Of a DNA stretch of 64,000 nt, positions 23,631 through 37,508 are shown piece by piece. Numbering within the stretch: the stretch's first letter is position 1; each line of letters starts with the position of its first letter. The notes under the pieces are model-generated. The model did no database searches, had not been told where the DNA came from, and saw nothing but the letters and a program-made list of their open reading frames with translations. The position numbers and the translations under genes are program-made. The DNA is from a virus. The stretch is from IMG/VR virus record IMGVR_UViG_3300025466_000023, positions 1-64,000 of that record. The stretch is one strand, 5' to 3'.

Positions 23631-23960
23631 TTACACGGAGAATGAACTACCACATCCACAAGTTGTTTGGGCATTGGGATTTTGGATTACAAACTGACTG
23701 CCGCGAATATCTTCTTTATAGTCTAATGTTGCTCCAACAAGATATTGATGGCTCATAGAATCTATTAGAACAGTAATAGAACCTTTTGTGATTTCAAAAT
23801 CATCTTCGTTTACTTCGCTGTCAAAAGTAAAGCCATATTGAAATCCTGAGCAACCGCCGCCCTGCACAAAACATCGAAGTTTTAAATTAGGATCATTTTC
23901 TTCTGCCAACAGATCGGCTATTTTATCTATACACGATTGAGTTACTGTTATTTGTTCCAT
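23631..23960 (-). CDS. erpA: A-type Fe-S carrier ErpA
   Basis: [17 protein letters not shown]...[16 protein letters not shown]. Confidence 0.92.
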
Positions 23961-24553
23961 TATATTTTTATTACTAAAGATTCATCCCAACCAACTTTTG
24001 CAACTTTTTCATATTCTAAATTCCAACTTATTGCAAGTCTAAGCCGTTGTTGATCTTTATTCGTATTTATGGGCAAAACCATATGCATCAAATAACCTGG
24101 GAATAGAACTGCATGCATTTTTTGAGGAGTGTAATAAAAATCCGTGCAATTTCCATGCACTTCTCCTCTGTAATCCGTTACTGTACCTCTATAAAAATCT
24201 TGGGAACCCCTTGGATCTATAAAACATATATCGCCCCCACCTTCAGTTACGTAGAATGTTCCGACCATCCATGCTCCTGGATGACAATGATTAGGTATAA
24301 AATGAGTAGGCTCGGATATAACTCTTGCCCACGCTCTATTAAACACTATATAACCATCTGTGTATCCAACTGATATAGCATATTCTCTAGCAGAAGATAA
24401 TATTCTTCTTAAAAATATTTGACTTTCATTAGAAGTCAAAGCCATCGGATCTAAATTAACTTTCATCAATTGGTAAGACATTTCTACTATAACAGTTTCT
24501 ATGTCAGCCCAATCGTCGATCCAAATATCTGTAGGGAAAAGGGTTTTTTTCAA
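23960..24553 (-). CDS. Putative 2OG-Fe(II) oxygenase (TIGR02466-like)
   Basis: LFPT...AWAR...[15 protein letters not shown]...DPRG...[10 protein letters not shown]...RLAISWN. Confidence 0.8.
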
Positions 24554-24930
24554 TTATTTTTGTTTTTATAATCTGCTACTGCGGCTTTGATTGCGTCCTC
24601 TGCGAGGATTGAGCAGTGGATTTTAACAGGTGGAAGAGCCAGCTCTTCGGCGATGTCACTGTTTTTAAGAAGTCCCGCTTGGTCGATGTGCATTCCTTTG
24701 ATCCATTCAGTAACCAATGAGCTGGAGGCAATTGCTGATCCGCATCCATAAGTCTTGAATCGTGCATCTTCTATAATTCCTTCTTTGTTTACTTTGATCT
24801 GTAATTTCATTACATCGCCACAAGCAGGTGCTCCTACCATTCCTGTGCCAACTCCCTCTTCGTCTTTAGGGAATGAACCCACGTTGCGTGGGTTTTCGTA
24901 ATGATCAATTACCTTGTCTGAATAAGCCAT
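24550..24930 (-). CDS. iscU: Fe-S cluster scaffold IscU
   Basis: MAYSDKVIDHYENPRNVG, GAPACGDVM, FKTYGCGSAIAS, LPPVKIHCS. Confidence 0.97.
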   Translation of the reverse strand: MAYSDKVIDHYENPRNVGSFPKDEEGVGTGMVGAPACGDVMKLQIKVNKEGIIEDARFKTYGCGSAIASSSLVTEWIKGMHIDQAGLLKNSDIAEELALPPVKIHCSILAEDAIKAAVADYKNKNN

Positions 24931-24931
24931 A

Positions 24932-25249
24932 TTAGTTTGGTACTAGTACAGTTTTGTAACAATTACAACTAGCATCAAGGATAGCTTCCCAATGATAGCC
25001 CGCAGGCTGTGGCATCACCGGAGCGGCTGGGGGAGGATAAACAGGCTGTGGTTGTACGTAAACAACGTTTGGCTGGACCGGACGAGCTATCTCGTATCCA
25101 ATTACACCTCCGATTACAGTAGGCACTACCCACCCATAATTTGGACGATAAACATAGTGTCCGCCACCGTGGTGCCAACCTTCAGCATATGATGTCATGC
25201 ACATGCTTAACCCTGCAGATAAAATAATTGGTAACAATAGTTTTTTCAT
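24932..25249 (-). CDS. Secreted or membrane proline-rich small protein
   Basis: Signal-peptide-like MKKLLLPIILSAG...SYA; GGVIG segment; VYVQPQPVYPPP; C-terminal CNC. Confidence 0.65.
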   Translation of the reverse strand: MKKLLLPIILSAGLSMCMTSYAEGWHHGGGHYVYRPNYGWVVPTVIGGVIGYEIARPVQPNVVYVQPQPVYPPPAAPVMPQPAGYHWEAILDASCNCYKTVLVPN

Positions 25250-25330
25250 AATAAGTACTCCTTCGTACTAATATAACGTTTGAACAACTCAAATAGTTGA
25301 CTTGCATCAGTATTTATATTAAATAATAGC

Positions 25331-26461: not shown

Positions 26462-27229
26462 TCAGTCTCTTGTTAATATTTTTTCTTCAACCTTATCCCA
26501 AAAAGCTATTCTAGATTTTATAGCTGTAATTGCGGTATGTTCTGCTTCAATTATTTTTAAAGGATGATTCTCGCATAGTTCTTCTACTAAGTTGATAGAA
26601 GCTGGCCCGTGACTATCTCCATCTACTTCAATGTGTCTTTCTAGATAAAATGCAAATCGACTAGCTTCTATAGAATTAAGATCTAACTGAGCAATTAATC
26701 TTTGAAACATAGCAGGTATTACTGTTTCTCTACCGTAAGTAAAGGCCGCCGCTATTTCGTGTACCTTTCCTCTTTGTATGATATCAAAAGTAGTCCTCAT
26801 AAATTCTTGACTAGGGTCCGGAATAAAAGAATCTATCAAAGCAAAATCTATTCCTTCTTTTTCAACAGATTCTAAAAATTTCATTATGGGTCTAGTATCA
26901 GCGCCAATTTCTGCCATTGTTTGGCAGTATAGGTCAAAGTGACTAATGTGAGAATTACGAAAAGGATCTATATCGCTTTCTTCTGATAATATTATTTCGT
27001 TAATCAACCTGCCTAGTTTACGTTGTCTTGCTGAAGGTAACCACAGATCTCCGCTAGGACATATACGATGCTGTAGTGCCTTAGCCAAGCTCATAAAATC
27101 CCAAACGGCAAACACATGATGCTCCATAAAGATTTTAAGGTCGTCGATAGACTGTATGGTATTAGTAACCAATAGAGAATGGTTTTCTAATAGGTGTTTA
27201 TGCTGGTTGACTTTGGATATCTTTAGCAT
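26462..27229 (-). CDS. DUF3050 heme-oxygenase-like (dimetal) protein
   Basis: FMEHHVFAVWDFMSL, EIILSEESD, SHFDLY, GRETVIP, YLERHIEVDGDSHGP. Confidence 0.85.
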   Translation of the reverse strand: MLKISKVNQHKHLLENHSLLVTNTIQSIDDLKIFMEHHVFAVWDFMSLAKALQHRICPSGDLWLPSARQRKLGRLINEIILSEESDIDPFRNSHISHFDLYCQTMAEIGADTRPIMKFLESVEKEGIDFALIDSFIPDPSQEFMRTTFDIIQRGKVHEIAAAFTYGRETVIPAMFQRLIAQLDLNSIEASRFAFYLERHIEVDGDSHGPASINLVEELCENHPLKIIEAEHTAITAIKSRIAFWDKVEEKILTRD

Positions 27230-28529
27230 CTTGTATCCCTGTTTCTACTAATTCAACGTCTTCGCCAAACAACAGTTTCAGTGCGGCATTTTGAACAGCA
27301 CCGTAATAGACTTTTTCATTTCTACAGTTTTTTAAAAAAACCTCGTCTGGAAATTCAATAGGACAACTAGATTTGCACAATCTTCTTACGTTACAATCTG
27401 CACAATGAGTTTTTTTTCTATTTAGATCCAACTGTACGATACGTATGCCTTTGAGATTATTAATAGTTCCTGCAATATACTTTTCATTTGTATGAGGACA
27501 AAGTCTCACGTTTCCTTGTACATCTATACTGAGCACGTCGCCCGCATCGGCTCCGCAGTTGGTAGTCATAGTAACCGGTATTTGATTCCTCATACTTAAT
27601 CCGTATTGTACGGCTCCAGTCCTACTATCAAAAAGATTAGACTCCATTAGAGGAAAGTTTTTGCCTTTGCCTAGTTTGTGTAATTGCTCTATGCGAGCAT
27701 CTAAGTATCTATTGATGATCTTCTTAAATTCTAAAGTATCGTCACCGGTCATTACGTGATTGGTGCTGTTTTGACTATCTGTTTCATCATACGTCCGTCC
27801 TAATGTAAAACTTAAACTAGGAAATTTTAATTCTAAGCGATCACTAACAACTTTAAACCAATTGTTTATTGCAAACAGATCATAATTTTGTTTACTGATC
27901 ACACAATTAAAACTATACTGTACTTTAGGATATAGTGCATCGATGGCTTTAATTGCACCAGCAACAGATTCTTTATCAAATATATCATCACCTCGAATAA
28001 ACTGTCCAGGTCCGTCATGACTAATACCTATGTTTACTACAGCAGATAGGCTTTGGAAAAAGTCTACATGTTTTTGTCTTAGTGGGCTTCCATTAGTGCT
28101 GATAAAGAAATGTCTTTTAGGACCATCTAAATGTTTCATTACTGGTTGTATGTCGTTCCAGTACAAAAATGGTTCGCCACCCCATAGTTCTATTCTTTCT
28201 AAGTTTTCTAAATCCAAATATGTATCTATAGACTCTATGAACTTATCTAACGCAGTATTCTTACTGCGTTCGTCGGGGTTTCCAATATCTTTCTGCATGC
28301 AATAATCGCAAGAATAGTTACAGGCATGTCCAAATAAAATACGCAACGCAACAGGTTTATTATGTTTCTTTCTAGTCCCGTGTGTCTTTTTGGCTTCTTC
28401 ATAAAACTCTAACGGTTTTTCGGCAGGAAGGCTTACAGTTTCTCCTGCATCGTTTATGAGAGTGTTATTGTCTACATCATAGTAAACAACTCTGCCGCTT
28501 TGTTTTAGTTTAAATTTGCTTAGACTCAT
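27198..28529 (-). CDS. Radical SAM/SPASM protein (443 aa)
   Basis: CNYSCDYC, LWGGEPF, STNG; SPASM C...DVQGNVRLC...CADCNVRRLCKSSC...C; start moved to ATG at 28529 (ATGA overlap with upstream stop). Confidence 0.92.
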   Translation of the reverse strand: MSLSKFKLKQSGRVVYYDVDNNTLINDAGETVSLPAEKPLEFYEEAKKTHGTRKKHNKPVALRILFGHACNYSCDYCMQKDIGNPDERSKNTALDKFIESIDTYLDLENLERIELWGGEPFLYWNDIQPVMKHLDGPKRHFFISTNGSPLRQKHVDFFQSLSAVVNIGISHDGPGQFIRGDDIFDKESVAGAIKAIDALYPKVQYSFNCVISKQNYDLFAINNWFKVVSDRLELKFPSLSFTLGRTYDETDSQNSTNHVMTGDDTLEFKKIINRYLDARIEQLHKLGKGKNFPLMESNLFDSRTGAVQYGLSMRNQIPVTMTTNCGADAGDVLSIDVQGNVRLCPHTNEKYIAGTINNLKGIRIVQLDLNRKKTHCADCNVRRLCKSSCPIEFPDEVFLKNCRNEKVYYGAVQNAALKLLFGEDVELVETGIQDAKDIQSQPA

Positions 28530-29596
28530 TTTTTCTCTATTATTGGAATTGCGTTGACTTGATCCGGTTTGATCAGACCAAATTTGCATTTAATCCAACC
28601 GCTTTCTATAAGACTGTTACAGTATCTAGTGTATGGTTTTAACATTATTCCCGGAATAAAGTTATAGTCATAGTTTACTTTATATGTATCAGTTAATTTG
28701 AAATATTCTCGAAACTTTGGATTATTTGTTTTTTCAATCCAATTTAAATAACGGCGCTGTTTGCCTTCTATCAACTTTATTAGCAACAGATCTTTATTAA
28801 ATGGCTGTGATAAATCGTCTACGATCCACCAAGGCTCTTCACTTATATCGCTAGCATCATCGCTAGAAAAATAGAATCTATCATAAAACAAATGCGGGGC
28901 TTCCCGCTGTATTTGAATTAATCCGTCATCTGTGCTATCAACCCATGTGTTTTGTTCTTCTGCCCATTGATGTTCTAGTATTCGTCTTTCGGCACTAAAA
29001 TCATGATGTACCATATTGCGCATGCCATTTTTATTAGCATACTCAATAACGGGTTTTAGAGATTCTATATCTCCACAATCAACAAATTTGATTTTTCTAA
29101 TAGGACTTGCATCGTTTAGTTTAGATAGTGCATCAAACAATTTATTTTGATTAACACTTTCTGCAAACTTAGAACTAATACTAATACTGGCTATGTTTTT
29201 AAACTTTATATCTTTAATCATTCTAGCTGATCTAAAGATAGCATTGTCTGTAAAACTATATTCCATATTGTGAGCATGTGCTTGATACCAAGCAAATTGT
29301 TTTGGATAGTTTAGTTTAAGGAACATCATGTCGTCGGCTGTGCTAACAACTAGAAAATTGCTAAAAGCATCTTGCCAAAAATGTTCAGCTTTGCTGGTTA
29401 TTTCTGGAAAATAACTAGGTAGGTTGTTTTTAAGATGTTTAAAATTTTTATCTATGTAACAGATTTTACAACCTGCATCACAATAATATCTAGTTCCCAA
29501 ACTAAAATAGATATCATAATTAATTGAACATAGAGAATCCTGAGATAGCCAATACTCATTGAGATCTATTGCTGTTTCAAAATTCCCATCTATCAT
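28526..29596 (-). CDS. Divergent radical SAM-like protein
   Basis: CDAGCKIC (CxxxCxxC) near the N-terminus, but no GGE motif and no SPASM cysteines. Confidence 0.65.
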   Translation of the reverse strand: MIDGNFETAIDLNEYWLSQDSLCSINYDIYFSLGTRYYCDAGCKICYIDKNFKHLKNNLPSYFPEITSKAEHFWQDAFSNFLVVSTADDMMFLKLNYPKQFAWYQAHAHNMEYSFTDNAIFRSARMIKDIKFKNIASISISSKFAESVNQNKLFDALSKLNDASPIRKIKFVDCGDIESLKPVIEYANKNGMRNMVHHDFSAERRILEHQWAEEQNTWVDSTDDGLIQIQREAPHLFYDRFYFSSDDASDISEEPWWIVDDLSQPFNKDLLLIKLIEGKQRRYLNWIEKTNNPKFREYFKLTDTYKVNYDYNFIPGIMLKPYTRYCNSLIESGWIKCKFGLIKPDQVNAIPIIEKK

Positions 29597-30702
29597 TGTT
29601 TAATTTCAAATCCTTCTGTAATACCTACCCAGTCGACTAAATTCTTTTGTTGTTTAAGTTTATCCGTATGCATGATTGCAAAGTTCATTATCTGATAAAA
29701 ATACTTGCAATTGCCTTTAGGTTCCTCGTTAAACATTTTATACATATACTTCAATCCACAACTAGCACGACTAGGACAAGTTACGCATGAAGGCAATATC
29801 TTATCATCGTCGCCTATGTCTTTCCAAACCACAGGAGTATCTGTGTCCCACTGTCCTGTTCTAGCTTCGTCTCTGCGATATTCTAACCATTCAAATTCTG
29901 GATAGATATAACCGTCTGGCCCTAATATTAATTTACTATGTTCTGCAAAATAGGCCTTGTCTATAAACTGATAATTTCCATCTATGAACACATTAATTTT
30001 TTTAATATAGAGTATTTGTAAGAACTCTAAAAATGCTTCAAAGAACTGTTTTAAATCAATGTTGTCAACTATCACATCGAATTTCTGTTTTCCTCGTTTA
30101 TGTCTTAGCGGAATTATGTTTACACTAGTACATCTAGTAGTATAACAGGTATTGACAAAATTAGCAATATTATTAAAACTAAAACTTCTACGATCATCTA
30201 TTGGTAAAACCCATTGCCATTTCCATTGTTCGCAATTTTCATTTAGCACCTTGGCCATAGCTTCAACATCAAATGATTCTCTGTTTTGCTCTTGGAACAT
30301 GAAATCATAACTAACTGTTGCGGCCAGTATACCTTTATATTTTTCAAAGAACTCTTTGTTTTCCACTACCAAAGATCCATTTGTAGTCATGCTAACTAGC
30401 CAGTTATTCCTACGTGCAATAGGTTCTAGCCATTCCATTATCTCATACATCCGCTTAATAAACAGCAGAGGTTCACCTCCATGAAAGGAGATTCTAGTTA
30501 TACTATTTGTTTGTTTTTCTGCCCAAAGAAAGAAATTCTTTAGTTTGTCAACTTGCCGAGGCCCTACTGATTGTCCACCAAGGTCCTCGATATAATCTCT
30601 ATCGCAATAAACACAATCAAAGTTACATTTATTACCTAGGTATATTGTAACTATGCGTATTTTATCTAAGGGATTAGGATTTACTAGATTTATTCTTGAC
30701 AT
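29593..30702 (-). CDS. Radical SAM protein with partial SPASM domain
   Basis: CNFDCVYC, FHGGEPL, TTNG; GPDGYIYP lacking the usual Cys; CVTCPSRASC...C. Confidence 0.9.
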   Translation of the reverse strand: MSRINLVNPNPLDKIRIVTIYLGNKCNFDCVYCDRDYIEDLGGQSVGPRQVDKLKNFFLWAEKQTNSITRISFHGGEPLLFIKRMYEIMEWLEPIARRNNWLVSMTTNGSLVVENKEFFEKYKGILAATVSYDFMFQEQNRESFDVEAMAKVLNENCEQWKWQWVLPIDDRRSFSFNNIANFVNTCYTTRCTSVNIIPLRHKRGKQKFDVIVDNIDLKQFFEAFLEFLQILYIKKINVFIDGNYQFIDKAYFAEHSKLILGPDGYIYPEFEWLEYRRDEARTGQWDTDTPVVWKDIGDDDKILPSCVTCPSRASCGLKYMYKMFNEEPKGNCKYFYQIMNFAIMHTDKLKQQKNLVDWVGITEGFEIKQ

Positions 30703-32434
30703 TTTTAATCAACCTGTGATTAAATGTTTCTGTAAGAGCTTTAGTTTCAGACTGTAATATTATTAAATGCAACAATCCTAAGAAAAATGCTCGTTGAGCA
30801 GGATCTAGTGTTTGACTATCCATTTTGTTATCTGTTGGTGCTATGCTTCCTTTATCTAAAATAAAGTAATAGAAATCACTAATTTCCATAATACTGTCAT
30901 CAACTAAACTTACAATTTCTTTAACAAAATTATTAGCACCTTGGGTAAGATTTATTTCTAGATTCATTATTTTACGCCACAGTGATAATAGTTTTCTATA
31001 ATCATCAATTTCATCTATTCCGTTATGGACTTTATCTAAAGAAGGATGGTAATTATAAAAATAATAAAATAACAAATAACTTAATCCTCTAACAAATGCA
31101 GGATGTTCGCCCATTGTTTGTTGTGCAGAAACAATCTTTTCAAACTTCAATTTAAACTGTTTTTTAGCAACGTCTTCTTGCAGATCAACAAACAACTTAA
31201 CAATTTTTTGACACATGTCGTCCGGACGAAACATTTTTGTTCCTGTGTCCAAATTGCCAGCAGGACATTGATAGCAGGCATTTTTGTAATCACAAGTTTG
31301 ACATTGTTCTTCTTCCTCAAACATCTTAGCATATTCTTTTTGGAAGTTTCTATATCTATCAATATAGATTTTGTCTTGCCAAAGGTTACCTAATATTGTT
31401 TCGCCTGTAGGGCCTGCCTTTTGATTAGTAAAGAAATAGCATCCGCTAAAGTCACCTGATCCATCAATAGCAATCATGTCTGCACCAATCATGCAGTTTT
31501 CTTCGCCCTTCTGTCCTACCCCTTCTGAAAAGTGTATGGTCATATCTTCGTGTTCTTCTAGTACTGCTACTATATCATCGTGCAGTTTTTGCCATTCTTC
31601 TTCTCGCCATTGAACGAATCCTCTAGCACTATCTAATACTAATGGATGAACGACTATTCTGCGTATACCTCTAGAATATAAATTGTCAACAAAGTCTCTA
31701 AAATAAGGAGCATTTTCTCTAGCAAGAGTAATCCTCATTGTAACACGTTTTGCGGCTTTAACATCTGCGGGCATACGACTTATGCAGTCCATTACTTTAT
31801 CGATATCCTTCTGCCCGATTTCTCTATGGTCAACTTCAGAGCGATTTGTATCAAGACTGATTAATACTCCTGTAAAGTCGTATGAAAAATATTCATTTAT
31901 AAATTCATCTGTTAACAAAATACCGTTTGTTACCAGACCAATTACTGTATTTGTTTCTCCTGTACAGGTTAGAGATATTTCTTGTTCATTGGTCTTTAAG
32001 AATTGAAGTATTAGCTCTTTGTGTATCAAAGGCTCACCGCCAAAGAACTGAAACACTTTACGTTGTCTTTGGTTGCTGTCTCTAAGGAATCTAAATGCCG
32101 TTAGTAGACTTTCATTTGTAAATCTACCAAAGTCTTTGTTATGCTGTTCGTAACAGTACGTACAACTTAGATTACAAGCATTGGTTAATATTAAATTCAT
32201 CTGCTTCAAATCTTGAAACAAAAATTTACTATCTTTAAAACTTAATATTTGTTCAGTCGGCTTAGGTAGTACGCTTACAAGTCTGTTGGTTTTTTCTAAC
32301 CCTTTAGGGGTTATAATATTTGAGCTATGATATGCAAAGGATCCGTCTTCTGAAACACTAACACTAGATTTATGATCTAGGAATCTTTTCTTTTGTGCTT
32401 CAGTTTTGATCCAGGCAATTGGATGTTCTGCCAT
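30674..32434 (-). CDS. Radical SAM/SPASM protein with C-terminal extension (586 aa)
   Basis: CNLSCTYC, FFGGEPL, VTNG; CMIG...DGSGDFSGC...CQTCDYKNACYQC...MC; start at ATG 32434 overlaps the upstream stop (TAATG). Confidence 0.93.
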   Translation of the reverse strand: MAEHPIAWIKTEAQKKRFLDHKSSVSVSEDGSFAYHSSNIITPKGLEKTNRLVSVLPKPTEQILSFKDSKFLFQDLKQMNLILTNACNLSCTYCYEQHNKDFGRFTNESLLTAFRFLRDSNQRQRKVFQFFGGEPLIHKELILQFLKTNEQEISLTCTGETNTVIGLVTNGILLTDEFINEYFSYDFTGVLISLDTNRSEVDHREIGQKDIDKVMDCISRMPADVKAAKRVTMRITLARENAPYFRDFVDNLYSRGIRRIVVHPLVLDSARGFVQWREEEWQKLHDDIVAVLEEHEDMTIHFSEGVGQKGEENCMIGADMIAIDGSGDFSGCYFFTNQKAGPTGETILGNLWQDKIYIDRYRNFQKEYAKMFEEEEQCQTCDYKNACYQCPAGNLDTGTKMFRPDDMCQKIVKLFVDLQEDVAKKQFKLKFEKIVSAQQTMGEHPAFVRGLSYLLFYYFYNYHPSLDKVHNGIDEIDDYRKLLSLWRKIMNLEINLTQGANNFVKEIVSLVDDSIMEISDFYYFILDKGSIAPTDNKMDSQTLDPAQRAFFLGLLHLIILQSETKALTETFNHRLIKNVKNKSSKS

Positions 32435-32703
32435 TACAATGTACCACGAGTGCAATCACATTGACATTGACAATCGCAAACAGTAGTAAAATCATCATAA
32501 TAAGTGTGAGTATGATTTACAAGATTATTAAGAACGTTTGCCATTGCGGCAAATGTTGAAGCCGAAATACGTTGTCCAGACCCCACAGTTCCAGGTACGC
32601 TTACGCCTTGATTAGGTGCGGAAGTATAGTTAGCGTCCACGTTTCCGTCGGTTACGATCTGTGCATCTACTGTTGCGGTATTTGTTGAAGTTGTATCAGC
32701 CAT
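32434..32703 (-). CDS. Small protein with helix-HxH repeat and Cys-rich C-terminus (candidate radical SAM substrate)
   Basis: 89 aa ending HTHTYYDDFTTVCDCQCQCDCTRGTL; stop overlaps the start of the first radical SAM gene. Confidence 0.8.
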   Translation of the reverse strand: MADTTSTNTATVDAQIVTDGNVDANYTSAPNQGVSVPGTVGSGQRISASTFAAMANVLNNLVNHTHTYYDDFTTVCDCQCQCDCTRGTL

Positions 32704-32705
32704 AA

Positions 32706-33743
32706 TTAATCTCCAGTGTATTTATAACTGCTATTTCGATAAACATCTAAAGTGACTACGCATTTGTTTTCTAGTCCACCTAGACTTCTAGCTGTCTGTG
32801 AAAGACCCATAACAGTATTTTCATTCCATCTAATGTGTATATACCCTTGTTCTTGTCCATCTTTAAACTCAAAATATACCTTATTACTGTCCGGATCTCT
32901 AGTCCAATTTAGGTTAGATATTACTTTAATGTTTACTTTTGGAACTTCTTCTTGATAGCGCCACTGAAAAATGCTGTTTCCGAATGGTTTTAACCAAAAC
33001 TTATCACCCGCAACAATTTTAGAATTACCTAAATAGGCAATATTCTTGCTCATTGAGGGTCTAAAGATTATGTCTCCTATAGACCCAAAATGTGCCTCCG
33101 TAGTCCAAAACCTAACTTCTTCATCTTCCTCTGTATCAAAATACGGAGAAATAGCTGTTAAGTCTGGATTAGGCACTAGATAATAGATAGGCAGTTCTCC
33201 TGTTCTATATAAGAAAAACCATACAATACTTAAAACTTTGCTAGAGCCCGATTTGACCAAAGAACGATCGGGTAAGTAGACAAATTCTGATTTCAAATGA
33301 CCTTCTATTGTCTCTTCATTTTGTGCTAACCTATTTTCACTATCGAGCAATCGAGTAATCCATCTACTGTTGTTAGTAATATATTGATTATCAACATTAG
33401 TATTTTCATCAAATACTGTAGCAAAGGCAACACTTCTGCTAGCAGGATCTTCATCTAAGTAATCAAATGCAGTCTGCATATCTATGTCAATCGAAAGTCT
33501 TTCTCTATTAGGCAGATGTTGTTTAAAGAAGTGATACAACGTTAGCGTAGATTCTTTAGTTTTATTTCTACCTATAGTGATATTAAAATTATTCTTTGAA
33601 AAACAAGATAATCTTTGATAATAATCCCTTGCTTCCCATATACCTAATCCCTTGTAAAATCCCCCTACATTCCACGCATTTTGTATATCTCCCCAAGGAG
33701 TTGGATAATGAGGCAACTGTTGCACTATTACTGTTTTTTTCAT
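32706..33743 (-). CDS. Hypothetical protein in the radical SAM cluster
   Basis: 345-aa ORF coupled to neighbours (ATGA overlap upstream, 2-nt gap downstream); no motif recognised. Confidence 0.75.
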   Translation of the reverse strand: MKKTVIVQQLPHYPTPWGDIQNAWNVGGFYKGLGIWEARDYYQRLSCFSKNNFNITIGRNKTKESTLTLYHFFKQHLPNRERLSIDIDMQTAFDYLDEDPASRSVAFATVFDENTNVDNQYITNNSRWITRLLDSENRLAQNEETIEGHLKSEFVYLPDRSLVKSGSSKVLSIVWFFLYRTGELPIYYLVPNPDLTAISPYFDTEEDEEVRFWTTEAHFGSIGDIIFRPSMSKNIAYLGNSKIVAGDKFWLKPFGNSIFQWRYQEEVPKVNIKVISNLNWTRDPDSNKVYFEFKDGQEQGYIHIRWNENTVMGLSQTARSLGGLENKCVVTLDVYRNSSYKYTGD

Positions 33744-34108
33744 TTTATTGATACCTTTAATATCTTCATACTACCTGTAAATCTAATATCTTCATGTACT
33801 TTAACATCGATATTAATATATTGTATTATACCTTTGTTGGTATTACGTTCTTTCATTAATGTATGCCTTACTGTTATTGGTTCGTCTAAGTATATAGATT
33901 TTTTAAAACGAAACTGTTGTTCAATTAACCAAACAGTAAAATAATTAATATCTGTTTCACCCAATGCCTTGGCCGCGGTTAATAAACCAGGCACTACTAC
34001 TCTATCAGAATCTGCTCGATGCTGTGGGTTTCTATCGTTTCCCATCGCACAAAATGCAGTTATTTCTTCTTGAGTTACTTTAATAGGAAATTCAACATAG
34101 CCTATCAA
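33740..34108 (-). CDS. MaoC-like hotdog-fold dehydratase
   Basis: VTQEEITAFCAMGNDRNPQH...VVPGLLTA...RFKKSIYLDE. Confidence 0.82.
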   Translation of the reverse strand: MIGYVEFPIKVTQEEITAFCAMGNDRNPQHRADSDRVVVPGLLTAAKALGETDINYFTVWLIEQQFRFKKSIYLDEPITVRHTLMKERNTNKGIIQYINIDVKVHEDIRFTGSMKILKVSIK

Positions 34109-34919
34109 TTACATCTCCATAGGTCATTGTTATTCCTAATGCAGACAAAGATAATTTGATCATATCAAGTTCTCCATCTGTTACTTGATTACAATAATCC
34201 GCATCGATAAATTCTAAAGTGTATGTTCTAGTAGTTGACTCTTCTGTGTCAACATCAGATGCTGAGCCGCTGAACATGAAACCGCTGTGTTCTACTTTAG
34301 AAACCCACTTGACCATAAATGCTTGTTCGATGCTATCACCTGGACTAATCTTGGGCGGATACTTAATTGTTTTTGGAATCTCAATACTAATATCTCGACT
34401 CCACAATTTGTTTGGATTGCTGTCTATACAATGATATTCAGCGATAGCCAAGTGCGTTCTATCAAAACAACTAGAATTAAAAGCAGAATGAAAACGACCC
34501 GCTGTGTTATATCTATAACCATACCCGTCAGCCCGTGTTGGAAAAACTTCTGTTTCTTCAAAATCAAAAAAGAAACAACCGGGATTATCATTAATGTGTA
34601 AATGATATTTGTTATCAGGATCCCTATGCCAACGAAGGCACTGATTAGGAATTAGATTTAGAAATGTTCCTCGACTGACTTTAATTGGTAAAGACCTAAT
34701 AAACTTTTCAAATACAGTTCCTTGTATCTCAGGCACAACATTTGGGTTTTCGATATAAAAATACTTAAGGCGATCGACTCCCTCTTTTGGTAAACAAGCA
34801 TTCAGCATGCCCATTCTACTCATGTTATGTTTGATAGCGTTCCATTCTTCTAACACCTGCTGGGGATCGACACGTACGGCAGTACGTTCGATAATATTAC
34901 GCATAAACTGTCTACTCAT
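34092..34919 (-). CDS. Cupin/2OG-Fe(II) hydroxylase (Asp/Asn beta-hydroxylase-like) with C-terminal extension
   Basis: LRWHRD...KYHLHI...FHSAFN...DRTHL. Confidence 0.7.
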   Translation of the reverse strand: MSRQFMRNIIERTAVRVDPQQVLEEWNAIKHNMSRMGMLNACLPKEGVDRLKYFYIENPNVVPEIQGTVFEKFIRSLPIKVSRGTFLNLIPNQCLRWHRDPDNKYHLHINDNPGCFFFDFEETEVFPTRADGYGYRYNTAGRFHSAFNSSCFDRTHLAIAEYHCIDSNPNKLWSRDISIEIPKTIKYPPKISPGDSIEQAFMVKWVSKVEHSGFMFSGSASDVDTEESTTRTYTLEFIDADYCNQVTDGELDMIKLSLSALGITMTYGDVIDRLC

Positions 34920-35245
34920 TATGCTCGTGTCCTAATGCTAGTGTTGTGTATTGAAATGTAGGTTTCTAAATCAAAGTGTCCAAATGGATTATTATCAATT
35001 TGTTCAGCTATTTCGTATTCTAAATCACCGTACCAATTATTTTCCTTGGCAAACTGTTCCGGGTCACAATGCAGTTTTTCAGCTTGTTTATAGGCACTAT
35101 AAGTTCCTACAACATGTTGATGTTCATCATATTTTAAACATACAGCAACTAACACGGCTAGATCACGTGAAGATTTTGTCCATGTATATTCTATTTTTTC
35201 TAAGTTGCCCGTTCTATGTCTAGAAGGTCTTTCACGTGAAAACAT
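34919..35245 (-). CDS. Hypothetical protein
   Basis: 108 aa; upstream TATAAATA and AAGGGG SD; TAATG coupling to the next gene. Confidence 0.7.
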   Translation of the reverse strand: MFSRERPSRHRTGNLEKIEYTWTKSSRDLAVLVAVCLKYDEHQHVVGTYSAYKQAEKLHCDPEQFAKENNWYGDLEYEIAEQIDNNPFGHFDLETYISIHNTSIRTRA

Positions 35246-35295
35246 TGTTTAACCCCTTATTATTAGCGGTATTTATAAGTGCTACTTTAATGATT

Positions 35296-36522
35296 TTAAA
35301 ATGCTGGTATACCGACAACAACAGACGAACATTTACCACCAAAACCGTAGGAGTTTTTAACAAAATGAGATTTAGTTATTGTTTTAGTAGACTTTACGAT
35401 TGTAATGTCTTTTTCGAATTCACAACTGGTAAAATTAGCCACGGGTGGCACTTGTTTAGTTTCTAAACTTTTAATTCCATATATAAGTTCTATAAGACCA
35501 CTAGCACTCATTGTATGACCTATATGGCCTTTATTGCTAGTAATATATGCATTGGGAAATAATTTGTTCATAGCATCGTATTCTATTACATCTCCGGCAG
35601 GTGTAGATGTTGCATGAGCCGACACAAATGCAATGTCATCTTCAATAACTCCACTTCTAGTTAATGCCTGAACTGTGGCACTGGTTGCTCCCATACCATC
35701 TTCAGTTGGACTTGTAGGATGTGCGGTTTCTGTATAAAATCCTATGCCACATATTTCAGCAAGAATAGTAGCACCTCTAGCCTGTGCATGTTCTAAAGTT
35801 TCTACCACAACAACTCCTGCACCTTCTCCTAAAATAAATCCATCACGTGTATCGCTAAAGGGTTGGCTAATATAATCTTCATCGCGCTTGCTCAATGCAC
35901 GTAAAACTTGGAAGAAGTACATATCGTATTTTTCAACCATAGCATCAGTACCACCAACAACTGCTATGTCACAATCCCCTGCGGCTAAGCATTTAATGCC
36001 ATAATCTAAAGTGTAGATTCCCGTAGCACATGCACTAACCATTACTGTGCTAGGACCATGCCACCCGTATTTGGCCGCAACTGCACCCGTAGTAAAGTCA
36101 TAGCTAATGCCTAATGTTTGAAATGGGTTGGCTTTAGTTTTGCCAGAATTGTAAGCTATTTCGACTATGTTTCTAGCATCGTTGCCGCCACTGATACTAG
36201 ATATTAATGTAGCTACATTGGTAGTAGTAAATCCACTTTGTCTAACTGCTTCGTCTACGGCCAACATTGCGGCCTTGGTCAATAAGGGCCAATTGCGTGA
36301 CTCGTGTTCTGTATAAACTGTTTGTTCTAATTGGTCTAGATCGGGAAGCTCAAAGGCTCTATGGACTAGCATGGCGGGATCTGTACGAGTATCCCAACTA
36401 TCGACCTTAGGGGTGGGCTGTTTACTGTTGAACAATTTGGTAAAGGTATTATCAACACCAGAACCTAGTGAATTTACTAGGCCCATGCCTGTGATAACAA
36501 ATCGTGTGCTGGGAAGTTTCAT
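35296..36522 (-). CDS. fabF: Beta-ketoacyl-ACP synthase (FabF/FabB family)
   Basis: VITGMG, SACATG (catalytic Cys), GFILGEGAG, AHATSTPAGD, KGHIGHT, NSYGFGG. Confidence 0.92.
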   Translation of the reverse strand: MKLPSTRFVITGMGLVNSLGSGVDNTFTKLFNSKQPTPKVDSWDTRTDPAMLVHRAFELPDLDQLEQTVYTEHESRNWPLLTKAAMLAVDEAVRQSGFTTTNVATLISSISGGNDARNIVEIAYNSGKTKANPFQTLGISYDFTTGAVAAKYGWHGPSTVMVSACATGIYTLDYGIKCLAAGDCDIAVVGGTDAMVEKYDMYFFQVLRALSKRDEDYISQPFSDTRDGFILGEGAGVVVVETLEHAQARGATILAEICGIGFYTETAHPTSPTEDGMGATSATVQALTRSGVIEDDIAFVSAHATSTPAGDVIEYDAMNKLFPNAYITSNKGHIGHTMSASGLIELIYGIKSLETKQVPPVANFTSCEFEKDITIVKSTKTITKSHFVKNSYGFGGKCSSVVVGIPAF

Positions 36523-36568
36523 ATCAGCTGTATTTAAAGCTGATATTTTTTTAAATCACTAATAGTGA

Positions 36569-36946
36569 TTATCTAGTTGTATTATCGTTTTCGTAGTGTG
36601 TATGACCAGCAATAGTGTTTAATACACTGATTGCGGCATTTACTCCGGCCGCAGAAATTTGTTGCCCTGAGCTAGCAGTTCCTATACTTATTGACTGTGC
36701 GGGGCCATTAGTGTTGTTTGCAACACTATAAGTGTTCCTATCACCATTACTACCAAATGTAGCTTCTTGCTCGATATCAGTCCAGCTATGATAATGGCTC
36801 GCAAACTGATTAATAGCATTGCAAATACTGTTAATGTCCGAGGCATTAATTCTGTTTCCCGAATAAAAAGCGCCTGTGTTAGGGCTCGGAGTACCTGCTT
36901 GCCAATTTGGACCGCCTGTAGTTCCCGTTCCTGAACCTGTTCCCAT
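36569..36946 (-). CDS. Small protein with two helix-HxH repeats
   Basis: 125 aa; SGNRINAS...ASHYHSWTD and SGQQISAA...AGHTHYEND. Confidence 0.8.
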   Translation of the reverse strand: MGTGSGTGTTGGPNWQAGTPSPNTGAFYSGNRINASDINSICNAINQFASHYHSWTDIEQEATFGSNGDRNTYSVANNTNGPAQSISIGTASSGQQISAAGVNAAISVLNTIAGHTHYENDNTTR

Positions 36947-36947
36947 A

Positions 36948-37508
36948 TTATGCTCCTAGTGTGATTACCTTAGTATATATCGTTTGATCTCCGCCTTGTG
37001 GAACTAGATAATATATGTTCCTTGCTTGAATATTATATTCTGTTAATAGCGGTCGAATAAAGATATTTTCAAATAGTGTAGTTAATTGCGCAGTATTACT
37101 GTTACAACTGTTTACTTGGTTCTCTAACCATTCTACAGATTTGGCACTATTGTTAATCCAATCTTGTGCAACAAAGTCACTATAGATATTTTCGTACCCT
37201 GGATCTAGAAAAATATCTTGGCTAGCATCGTACCCTTGGGCAACAAGGCTAGTAGTTAACCAATCAGCTAATTTCATTTGTCTAGTAGAGCCCATTTTCA
37301 GCACATCAAAAAAGTCTTGATTAGATGTGTTATTAATTACTCCAATAATCTGTTGTCCTGAAACGGGAGATCCGTTTAGTGTCAATGCTTGCATGCAGGG
37401 ATGACTTAATGCAAATTGAATAAAGATGCTAGAAGTGGAATAAGTGTTAGTAGCTGTATTGATTGCTACGGCAGTCCATGAAAACGTAGATGAAGTTGTG
37501 TCTGACAT
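36948..37508 (-). CDS. Hypothetical protein
   Basis: 186 aa; coupled to neighbours; S/T-rich N-terminus MSDTTSST. Confidence 0.7.
   Translation of the reverse strand: MSDTTSSTFSWTAVAINTATNTYSTSSIFIQFALSHPCMQALTLNGSPVSGQQIIGVINNTSNQDFFDVLKMGSTRQMKLADWLTTSLVAQGYDASQDIFLDPGYENIYSDFVAQDWINNSAKSVEWLENQVNSCNSNTAQLTTLFENIFIRPLLTEYNIQARNIYYLVPQGGDQTIYTKVITLGA

What the first reader, a model, noticed from the sequence alone, without database searches (positions are those of the whole stretch)
32434..36946. One 29-aa helix-HxH repeat occurs once in the 89-aa protein and twice in the 125-aa protein: a possible 1+2 pseudo-trimer metal site
Seen: three segments align without gaps: SGQRISASTFAAMANVLNNLVNHTHTYYD (89 aa), SGNRINASDINSICNAINQFASHYHSWTD and SGQQISAAGVNAAISVLNTIAGHTHYEND (125 aa). 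Consensus SG-[QN]-[RQ]-I-[SN]-A-x10-N-x4-H-x-H-x3-D. Established: trimeric phage spikes and fibre tips (P2 gpV, phi92 gp138, T4 gp37, T4 gp12) bind Fe or Zn octahedrally with HxH from three chains. Inference: a 1:1 heterodimer would supply exactly three helices and six His, an asymmetric pseudo-trimer presenting a single Cys-rich tail for modification. Alternatively the repeat is a shared leader recognised by the modifying enzymes.
Basis: partly seen in the sequence, partly recalled or inferred. Interest (0 to 1): 0.88.

Follow-up and report, generated by a model that had tools for sequence, protein, structure and literature searches.

The report
Phage two-protein module with three HxH units
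Two small phage proteins always share three copies of one helix-plus-histidine unit, split two and one, beside four radical SAM genes and often tail-fibre genes; they probably form one cross-linked complex of unknown role.

Summary
The 89-aa protein (A) has one 29-aa unit and the 125-aa protein (B) has two. No other 29-mer in the window resembles them.

The split is conserved. I found one B with two units and one A with one unit plus a CxCxC...RGxL tail in the window and 20 other distinct loci. These include Ralstonia jumbo phage RP12. Five of five large phage records hold exactly one B and one A.

All six His and the three Asp are invariant or nearly so. Each unit position has its own sequence signature.

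The conserved core is B, A, an orphan ~300-aa protein, three radical SAM enzymes and one degenerate radical SAM-like protein. It often lies next to tail-fibre genes. The FabF and hotdog genes between B and A occur only in this phage.

A three-unit A+B assembly is the best reading. There is no detectable homology to T4 gp37 or P2 gpV. Variants with two or three units plus the tail exist, and their contexts could not be fetched.

The scan's earlier notes cover only this same genome.

The parts
36569..36946 (-). B: 125-aa protein with two helix-HxHxxxD units and no Cys
   Evidence: ORF. The B-family alignment A2 has invariant H51, H53, G65, H115 and H117, and nearly invariant G30, D57 and D121. 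Hits phrog_31780.
36776..36862 (-). B unit 1 (S29-D57)
   Evidence: Relatives carry an aromatic residue about four positions before the first His.
36584..36670 (-). B unit 2 (S93-D121); the protein ends four residues later
   Evidence: In the short B proteins the chain ends within a few residues of the Asp.
32434..32703 (-). A: 89-aa protein with a variable N-terminus, one unit and a Cys-rich tail
   Evidence: ORF. There are 56 family representatives at E<=1e-3. Invariant residues are H64, H66, D70, C76, C78, C80, R86 and G87.
32494..32580 (-). A unit (S42-D70)
   Evidence: A-type units group together, 19 of 19, in the unit tree with support 93/75.
32437..32478 (-). Cys tail CDCQCQCDCTRGTL (C76-L89)
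   Evidence: It sits at a fixed spacing after D70 throughout family A1.
32719..32726 (-). TATAAATA, a T4-type late-promoter-like box, followed by GGAG and the ATG of A
   Evidence: The window total of 3 matches is not above chance (6 expected). Its position is suggestive only. The consensus is recalled from T4 biology.
32706..33743 (-). C: orphan 345-aa protein, a core member next to A
   Evidence: jackhmmer finds it in 26 of 28 related loci. No Pfam or PDB relative was found.
30674..32455 (-). Radical SAM/SPASM enzyme (593 aa from the TTG; probably 586 aa from the ATG at 32434)
   Evidence: Pfam Radical_SAM 3.7e-17; SPASM matched only weakly, 18.7 bits, below its 21.5-bit cutoff. Best NCBIfam hit is PapB at 118 bits, below the cutoff of 340; QhpD, CXXX-repeat and SCIFF maturases follow. 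Its ATG overlaps A's stop codon as TAATG. Found in 27 of 28 loci.
29593..30702 (-). Second radical SAM enzyme (369 aa)
   Evidence: Found in 27 of 28 loci.
28526..29596 (-). 356-aa protein with CxxxCxxC but no Pfam radical SAM hit (degenerate radical SAM-like)
   Evidence: Found in 24 of 28 loci.
27198..28589 (-). Third radical SAM enzyme (463 aa)
   Evidence: Found in 25 of 28 loci.
26462..27229 (-). DUF3050 protein, an accessory member
   Evidence: Pfam 5.4e-81. Found in 10 of 28 loci.
33740..36522 (-). Insert found only in this phage, between B and C/A: FabF-like synthase, 108-aa, 275-aa and weak hotdog proteins
   Evidence: None of the four occurs in any of the 28 related loci.
36948..37508 (-). 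186-aa protein directly upstream of B
   Evidence: A homologue sits in the same position in L011 and L014 only.

Best explanation
A (89 aa) and B (125 aa) are the two small subunits of one conserved, phage-restricted module.

Shown: the module always contains three paralogous units, each an amphipathic stretch followed by HxHxxxD. Two units are in B and one is in A. A alone carries a CxCxC(xC)n-RGxL tail. The pair travels with an orphan ~300-aa protein, three radical SAM enzymes and one degenerate radical SAM-like protein. A's stop codon overlaps the start of a radical SAM/SPASM gene whose nearest characterised relatives make Cys thioether cross-links.

Inferred: A and B bind each other through their three units in a pseudo-threefold arrangement. 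This places six invariant His and three Asp close together as a metal or cross-link centre. A's single tail emerges six residues after that centre and is cross-linked by the radical SAM enzymes.

Also inferred: the product is a late, stable protein complex that works with the neighbouring tail fibre, for example as a tip or cap, rather than a diffusible peptide.
For: 1. Co-occurrence. B is found in 26 of 27 IMG/VR loci that were fetched with A alone. The miss, L018, ends 87 nt after A. RP12, a metagenome contig and a MAG scaffold show the same pair.
2. Copy number. There is exactly one B and one A in 5 of 5 large phage records, two of them at least 90% complete. B has exactly two HxHxxx[D/E] motifs and A one in 19 of 19 distinct rows.
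3. Invariance. H64, H66 and D70 in A. H51, H53, H115 and H117 invariant, and D57 and D121 nearly so, in B.
4. Position-specific signatures. A units form one group, 19 of 19, with support 93/75. B1 and B2 units cluster: 5 label changes against a shuffled mean of 27.5, matched in 0 of 200 shuffles. Units never group by phage. The triplication is therefore old and the positions are not interchangeable.
5. Fusion. P0040 (230 aa) has three units plus the tail in one chain.
6. B unit 2 ends the protein, so no core peptide follows it.
7. Protein-like variants. B occurs with an inserted Gly_rich_2 domain (49.7 bits) and with a beta-rich domain plus a Hint-like module. A occurs with a mini-intein inside the tail (TIGR01445, 27.2 bits), and with a ~190-aa C-terminal domain.
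8. Neighbourhood. Tail-fibre or virion-protein PHROG hits fall on the adjacent gene in L003, L010, L011, L016, L019, L020, L022, L026 and L028. A protein ending W[KR]Q[VI][YFW]PAVY abuts the cassette in 9 of 18 distinct viral loci.
9. Enzymes. The nearest families are the PapB, QhpD, CXXX-repeat and SCIFF thioether maturases. A is translationally coupled to the first of them.
10. A late-promoter-like box lies directly before A.
11. Range. Only 1 relative was found among representative genomes of 185,579 species, and it is a full cassette on a 25.6-kb MAG scaffold.
Against: No sequence homology to known HxH metal sites was detected: T4 gp37 tip 2.9%, P2 gpV 0.2%. Neither profile has a PDB relative.

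Eight of 56 family representatives have two strict units plus the tail in one chain. They align to the whole B model. If these systems have no third unit, three is not obligatory.

The RefSeq annotation of RP12 names ORF072 and ORF073 virion structural proteins but calls B (ORF074) hypothetical. The list of the 32 RP31 virion proteins is in a supplement I could not open.

In this window and in L008, L013, L015 and L021 the gene next to the cassette is not recognisably a fibre. No fibre-end protein was found in the 81.5 kb held for this phage.

Tail-fibre regions are also hot spots for accessory genes, so adjacency is weak evidence.

The TATAAATA count in the window is not above chance.
Confidence: 0.42

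Rival explanations
1. Leader or docking model. The units are recognition elements for the radical SAM enzymes. A is a RiPP precursor, with the helix as leader and the Cys tail as core. B is a second substrate, a decoy or a chaperone built from duplicated leaders. The end product is a modified peptide released at lysis, such as a toxin, metallophore or signal.
For: A has the layout of a precursor: variable N-terminus, conserved helix, Cys-rich C-terminus. It sits directly upstream of, and is coupled to, a SPASM maturase. Three distinct unit signatures and three active radical SAM enzymes could pair one to one. Two of the enzymes have about 80 residues ahead of the radical SAM core.
Against: No PqqD/RRE domain was detected in those N-termini. 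B unit 2 is followed by only 3-5 residues, so it leads no core. The invariant residues are the His and Asp inside the unit, not only the helix. The conserved core has no protease or exporter. There is always a single A gene. Variants with large folded domains and an intein look like proteins rather than peptides.
Confidence: 0.3
2. The HxHxxxD motifs are themselves the modified sites. Radical SAM enzymes cross-link His, Tyr or Asp side chains within each unit, as three-residue cyclophane-forming enzymes do, so both A and B are substrates.
For: The invariant H, H and D have fixed spacing in all three units. Cyclophane-forming maturases (YhhB, XyeB) are among the weaker NCBIfam hits. There are more enzymes than one tail seems to need.
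Against: The best enzyme hits are thioether formers, not cyclophane formers. Nothing here speaks directly to the chemistry.
Confidence: 0.12
3. A and B are small metal-handling proteins, a store or chaperone for Fe, Zn or Fe-S that serves the neighbouring radical SAM enzymes, and are not their substrate.
For: The proteins are rich in His and Cys. An IscU/NifU gene lies nearby in this phage.
Against: The Fe-S genes are absent from all 28 related loci while A and B are kept. CxCxC tails next to SPASM enzymes are typical substrates.
Confidence: 0.05
4. The similarity is chance or low-complexity, and the ORFs are not genes.
For: None found.
Confidence: 0.01

Closest known systems
Radical SAM/SPASM thioether systems: ranthipeptides (PapA/PapB), SCIFF peptides, QhpC/QhpD of quinohemoprotein amine dehydrogenase, CrpA/CrpC
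   Same: A Cys-rich small protein is encoded directly before a SPASM radical SAM enzyme. These families are the enzyme's best NCBIfam hits. QhpC (recalled) and CrpA (abstract of PMC13692751 seen) show that such enzymes can cross-link proteins that stay as subunits, not only short peptides.
   Different: Scores lie far below every family cutoff, for example 118 against 340 bits for PapB. The tail is CxCxC, not CX3D (the PapB motif is recalled). There are three active enzymes plus one degenerate one, an obligatory Cys-free two-unit partner B and an orphan protein C. No RRE, protease or exporter was detected. The system is restricted to phages.
HxH metal sites on the threefold axis of phage fibres and spikes (T4 gp37 needle, T4 gp12, P2 gpV, phi92 gp138; recalled)
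   Same: There are three HxH motifs per assembly, six His in all, in a phage and often beside fibre genes.
   Different: The three motifs lie on two different small chains rather than on a homotrimer. Each is preceded by a helix-like stretch and followed by an invariant Asp. No homology was detected to the gp37 tip or gpV. gp12 and gp138 were not compared. Metal binding was not tested.
Asymmetric caps on trimeric phage organelles: PAAR proteins (a one-chain pseudo-trimer on the spike) and T2/S16-type gp38 adhesins with Gly-rich domains (recalled)
   Same: A pseudo-threefold small unit next to a trimeric fibre gene. One B variant carries a Gly-rich domain (PF21722).
   Different: No PAAR or gp38 family hit. 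The likeness is by analogy only, and the fold is unknown.
PHROG phrog_31780 (unknown function)
   Same: Both A and B match it, as does the B of L028 at 1.6e-20.
   Different: The family carries no function and does not record the 2+1 split or the tail.

Membership tests
Trimeric HxH metal-binding fibre and spike tips (T4 gp37, P2 gpV) | HxH motif present | tested here: met
   Three HxH motifs, invariant across relatives.
Trimeric HxH metal-binding fibre and spike tips (T4 gp37, P2 gpV) | Detectable sequence homology to a solved member | tested here: not met
   hhalign 2.9% (gp37 C-terminal 326 aa) and 0.2% (gpV). PDB profile searches returned only His-tag artefacts.
Trimeric HxH metal-binding fibre and spike tips (T4 gp37, P2 gpV) | Three identical chains supply the six His | tested here: not met
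   The units lie 2+1 on two unlike chains in 21 of 21 loci.
Trimeric HxH metal-binding fibre and spike tips (T4 gp37, P2 gpV) | His residues converge on Fe or Zn | not testable with these tools
Radical SAM/SPASM thioether RiPP systems (PapB, SCIFF, QhpD type) | Radical SAM enzyme with SPASM domain next to a Cys-rich substrate gene | tested here: inconclusive
   Adjacency and coupling are met, but the Pfam SPASM match is below its cutoff (18.7 vs 21.5 bits).
Radical SAM/SPASM thioether RiPP systems (PapB, SCIFF, QhpD type) | Enzyme scores above the family's curated cutoff | tested here: not met
   PapB 118 against 340; QhpD 83 against 453; SCIFF 80 against 425.
Radical SAM/SPASM thioether RiPP systems (PapB, SCIFF, QhpD type) | Peptide-recognition (RRE/PqqD) domain | tested here: inconclusive
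   No Pfam hit in the whole enzymes or in their N-terminal 85 residues. Divergent RREs are often missed.
Radical SAM/SPASM thioether RiPP systems (PapB, SCIFF, QhpD type) | Leader protease or exporter in the cluster | tested here: not met
   The conserved core holds only B, A, C and four radical SAM-type proteins.
Radical SAM/SPASM thioether RiPP systems (PapB, SCIFF, QhpD type) | Thioether cross-links in the product | not testable with these tools
   This needs mass spectrometry.
phrog_31780 | Profile match | tested here: met
   A 2.4e-6 and B 1.8e-4. L028 B 1.6e-20 and L003 B 7e-11.
PAAR or gp38-type caps | Family profile match | tested here: not met
   No Pfam family for A or B at E<=0.1.

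The most novel reading that the evidence does not exclude
A and B form the first known virion protein stapled by radical SAM enzymes. It would be a pseudo-trimeric cap for a trimeric tail fibre. The three invariant Cys of A's tail would be thioether-linked, one each, to the three invariant Asp of the three units, using PapB/QhpD-type Cys-to-Asp chemistry. This would lock a six-His metal centre. The three active enzymes would each serve one non-equivalent position.
Probability: 0.08. Interest if true: 0.92.

Novelty: new variant of a known kind. Interest (0 to 1): 0.72.

Why it matters
Phages from very different lineages keep the same seven-gene cassette. They include a T4-like freshwater myovirus, a phiKZ-like Ralstonia jumbo phage and contigs of 160-380 kb. 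About a third to a half of its coding length is oxygen-sensitive radical SAM enzymes.

No paper describing it turned up in seven full-text searches. The A gene is not even annotated in RP12.

If the product is a cross-linked fibre component, it would add a new kind of post-translational chemistry to virion assembly and host recognition. If it is a released peptide, it would be a phage-specific RiPP class with an unusual obligatory partner protein.

Either way the 2+1 rule gives a sharp, testable structural hypothesis. RP12 and RP31 are cultured phages in which it can be tested.

Tried and rejected
Structure route. Complex prediction (A+B+Fe) and structure prediction (B alignment) were not available. 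No fold or interface was obtained, so fold search could not be used.

ESM Atlas. B's nearest clusters are unnamed viral proteins and the Atlas holds no model of it. C's Atlas model is poor (pLDDT 0.26) and its structural hits have TM<=0.32.

PDB by profile. Nothing was found for A, B or C.

Scans of viral contigs, genome contigs and metagenome contigs with A3, A4, P0039 and P0040, and a designed DNA pattern, returned only ordinary B+A loci or nothing. tblastn of P0039 against phages and plasmids found nothing. The partners of these variants therefore remain unknown.

Other searches. The search for longer fused B forms found none, which is weak evidence. The word-index search with B found only its own cluster. 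megablast and tblastn of the region and of B against phages found nothing.

Expression. No RNA holder was listed.

Virion evidence. The passages I read in PMC5468394 say that 32 RP31 virion proteins were identified, but the list is in Fig. 4 and Table S3.

Papers. PMC12801897 (passages read) and PMC5332604 (passages read) mention phage radical SAM genes but not this cassette.

Rejected readings. FabF and hotdog as part of the system: they occur in 0 of 28 related loci. Chance similarity: ruled out.


Full report
**1. Observation**

The minus strand encodes an 89-aa protein (A, 32434-32703) and a 125-aa protein (B, 36569-36946). A motif scan of all six frames finds the unit G-x2-I-x-A...H-x-H three times, once in A and twice in B, and nowhere else in the 64 kb.

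The ungapped 29-residue units share 10-14 identities, with BLOSUM62 scores of 55-64. Of 34,841 29-mers in the window's open frames, no other reaches 35. Both proteins hit phrog_31780, a family of unknown function. Neither has a Pfam or NCBIfam family.

**2. Where the window comes from**

The window is part of an 81.5-kb viral record that CheckV rates 23% complete. Near-identical DNA is held by 20 freshwater and lake metagenome runs. Its baseplate and tail proteins are about 27-36% identical to those of T4-like Synechococcus and Prochlorococcus phages.

**3. Family of A**

An exhaustive HMMER search gave 56 representatives at E<=1e-3. An alignment of 33 one-unit members has invariant H64, H66, D70, C76, C78, C80, R86 and G87. 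Its consensus is G..I.A.TF..ML.VL..L..HTH...DDY.T.C.C.C...RG.L, after a variable N-terminus.

**4. The 1+2 split is conserved**

- Ralstonia jumbo phage RP12 has a 125-aa ORF074 with two units. It also has an unannotated 65-aa ORF with one unit and a CNCNCACTRGSL tail. These are followed by the same enzymes.
- A scan of IMG/VR with the A alignment alone returned 27 loci.
- A profile built from B proteins then found a B in 26 of those 27. The miss, L018, ends 87 nt after A, whereas its nearest relatives carry B about 4 kb further on.
- I removed duplicates and near-duplicates: L001, L004, L007, L009, L014, L017, L018 and L023-L025. That left 18 viral loci plus the window. In 19 of 19 rows, B has exactly two HxHxxx[D/E] motifs and A has one.
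- A 1-kb metagenome contig (L031) and a 25.6-kb scaffold of a Bdellovibrio MAG (L037) show the same pair.
- Searching five whole records, of 175-379 kb and two of them at least 90% complete, gave exactly one B and one A in each.
- In the B alignment H51, H53, G65, H115 and H117 are invariant, and G30, D57 and D121 are nearly so.
- The A and B profiles are homologous over the unit (hhalign 97.6%, E 4e-12).

**5. The three positions are not equivalent**

A units carry F..ML.[VI]L..L..HTH.FYDDY. B1 units have an aromatic residue about four positions before the first His and are followed by a [YF]GN motif. B2 units have N..[IL]R.H.H.I.D and end the chain.

In a tree of 57 units the A units form one group (19 of 19, support 93/75). 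B1 and B2 units are clustered but not resolved, with only 29 columns available. The tree needs 5 label changes, against a shuffled mean of 27.5, and 0 of 200 shuffles did as well. Units never group by phage. The triplication therefore predates these phages.

In all three classes hydrophobic positions repeat at 95-100 degrees per residue. This fits an amphipathic helix ahead of HxH, but it is an inference.

**6. The conserved cassette**

| Window protein | Found in related loci (of 28, L001-L028) |
|---|---|
| A | 28 |
| 593-aa radical SAM/SPASM | 27 |
| 369-aa radical SAM | 27 |
| 463-aa radical SAM | 25 |
| 356-aa protein with CxxxCxxC only | 24 |
| Orphan protein C | 26 (by jackhmmer) |
| DUF3050 | 10 |
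| FabF-like synthase, hotdog, 275-aa, 108-aa, PhyH-like, NifU, 2OG oxygenase | 0 |

C lies next to A in every locus where I checked positions and has no Pfam or PDB relative. The genes that lie between B and A in this window are therefore a local insertion.

The 593-aa enzyme is nearest to the PapB, QhpD, CXXX-repeat and SCIFF thioether maturases, but far below every family cutoff. Its likely ATG overlaps A's stop codon as TAATG. Directly before A there is a TATAAATA box, then GGAG, then the ATG. The window total of three such boxes is not above chance.

**7. Neighbourhood and variants**

The gene next to B has tail-fibre or virion-protein PHROG hits in L003, L010, L011, L016, L019, L020, L022, L026 and L028. 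In RP12 the upstream ORF072 and ORF073 are annotated as virion structural proteins.

A protein ending W[KR]Q[VI][YFW]PAVY abuts the cassette in 9 of 18 distinct viral loci. In L020 and L022 it is a 90-aa protein made of that end alone. Pfam gives YadA_stalk in 2 of 9 of these proteins and CBM_5_12 only at E 0.11 in 1 of 9. None was found in the 81.5 kb held for this phage.

In L008, L013, L015 and L021 the neighbour is not recognisably a fibre.

B variants:
- L028 has a Gly_rich_2 domain (PF21722, 49.7 bits) inserted between its two units.
- L003 and L016 add a beta-rich domain.
- L003 also has a Hint-like module, below the Pfam cutoff.

A variants:
- L013 has a mini-intein inside the Cys tail (TIGR01445, 27.2 bits against a cutoff of 24.5).
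- P0054 has a Pro-rich linker and a ~190-aa domain after the tail.

**8. Range**

Among 50,697 phage records, only RP12 and RP31 (three records) hold a close homologue of the 593-aa enzyme. Among representative genomes of 185,579 species, a motif scan found three stretches and one true relative, the MAG scaffold with the full cassette. The module is essentially viral.

**9. What argues against a strict rule of three**

Of the 56 representatives, counted by a strict motif:
- 43 have one unit plus the tail;
- 8 have two units plus the tail;
- 3 have two units and no tail, including this B;
- 2 have one unit and an aberrant or truncated tail.

P0040 is counted among the 43, but by HMM it has three units in one chain. 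P0011, P0034 and P0038 have a looser second unit. The two-unit-plus-tail proteins align to the whole B model. I could not fetch their contigs, so I cannot say whether a third unit is encoded nearby.

**10. Comparison with known systems**

hhalign gives 2.9% for the T4 gp37 C-terminal 326 aa and 0.2% for P2 gpV. No RRE was detected in the enzymes. The core cassette has no protease or exporter.

The closest working analogies are two. One is small proteins cross-linked by radical SAM enzymes that remain subunits: QhpC (recalled) and CrpA (abstract of PMC13692751). The other is asymmetric caps on trimeric phage organelles: PAAR and gp38 (recalled).

**11. Reading**

It is shown that A and B are a conserved pair with three specialised units, six conserved His and three conserved Asp. 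It is also shown that they are tied to radical SAM enzymes of the thioether-forming type.

It is inferred that they assemble through the three units, that the His and Asp form a metal or cross-link centre, that A's tail is cross-linked, and that the complex serves the neighbouring fibre.

The leader or docking model remains a serious rival. I found no published description in seven full-text searches. Supplements that might list RP31 ORF70 among virion proteins were closed.

Noticed in passing
L013:9923-10543: An A-type peptide carries a mini-intein (TIGR01445 intein N-terminal region, 27.2 bits, cutoff 24.5) inserted inside its Cys tail. Splicing would restore a CxCxC...RG tail.
   Followed up: partly
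L003:8632-9987 and L016:9027-9908: These B-type proteins are extended by a shared beta-rich domain. In L003 there is also a Hint-like module starting at residue 270 (PF05203, 29.5 bits, below the cutoff of 32.1).
   Followed up: partly
L028:7122-8279: A B-type protein has a 230-residue glycine-rich domain (PF21722, 49.7 bits) inserted between its two units.
   Followed up: partly
L001:6793-6990 (Ralstonia phage RP12, NC_041911): The 65-aa A-type gene between ORF074 and ORF075 is not annotated in the record.
   Followed up: yes
window 33740-36522: A FabF-like ketoacyl synthase, a weak hotdog/MaoC protein and two unknown proteins sit between B and C/A. None occurs in any of the 28 related loci, so they are a local insertion of unknown purpose.
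   Followed up: partly
window 25311-25318, 32719-32726, 35270-35277: All three TATAAATA boxes in the window lie on the minus strand just upstream of gene starts. The total is not above chance.
   Followed up: partly
L002:9189-9458, L020:8211-8480, L022:9252-9521 and others: A conserved fibre end...AGDIAV.GG.IY....W[KR]Q[VI].PAVY-COOH, abuts the cassette in 9 distinct loci. In two loci it is a free-standing 90-aa protein.
   Followed up: partly
L037 (NCGL01000045.1, Bdellovibrio MAG scaffold, 25.6 kb): This is the only hit among representative genomes of 185,579 species. It carries the whole cassette and is probably a phage contig binned into the MAG.
   Followed up: partly
window 23960-25249: An IscU/NifU-type scaffold (Pfam 1.4e-52) and a 2OG-Fe(II) oxygenase lie just downstream of the radical SAM block. 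They are absent from all 28 related loci.
   Followed up: no
P0054 (256 aa, NCBI and Logan sources): An A-type protein in which the Cys tail is followed by a proline-rich linker and a ~190-aa domain instead of RGxL.
   Followed up: no
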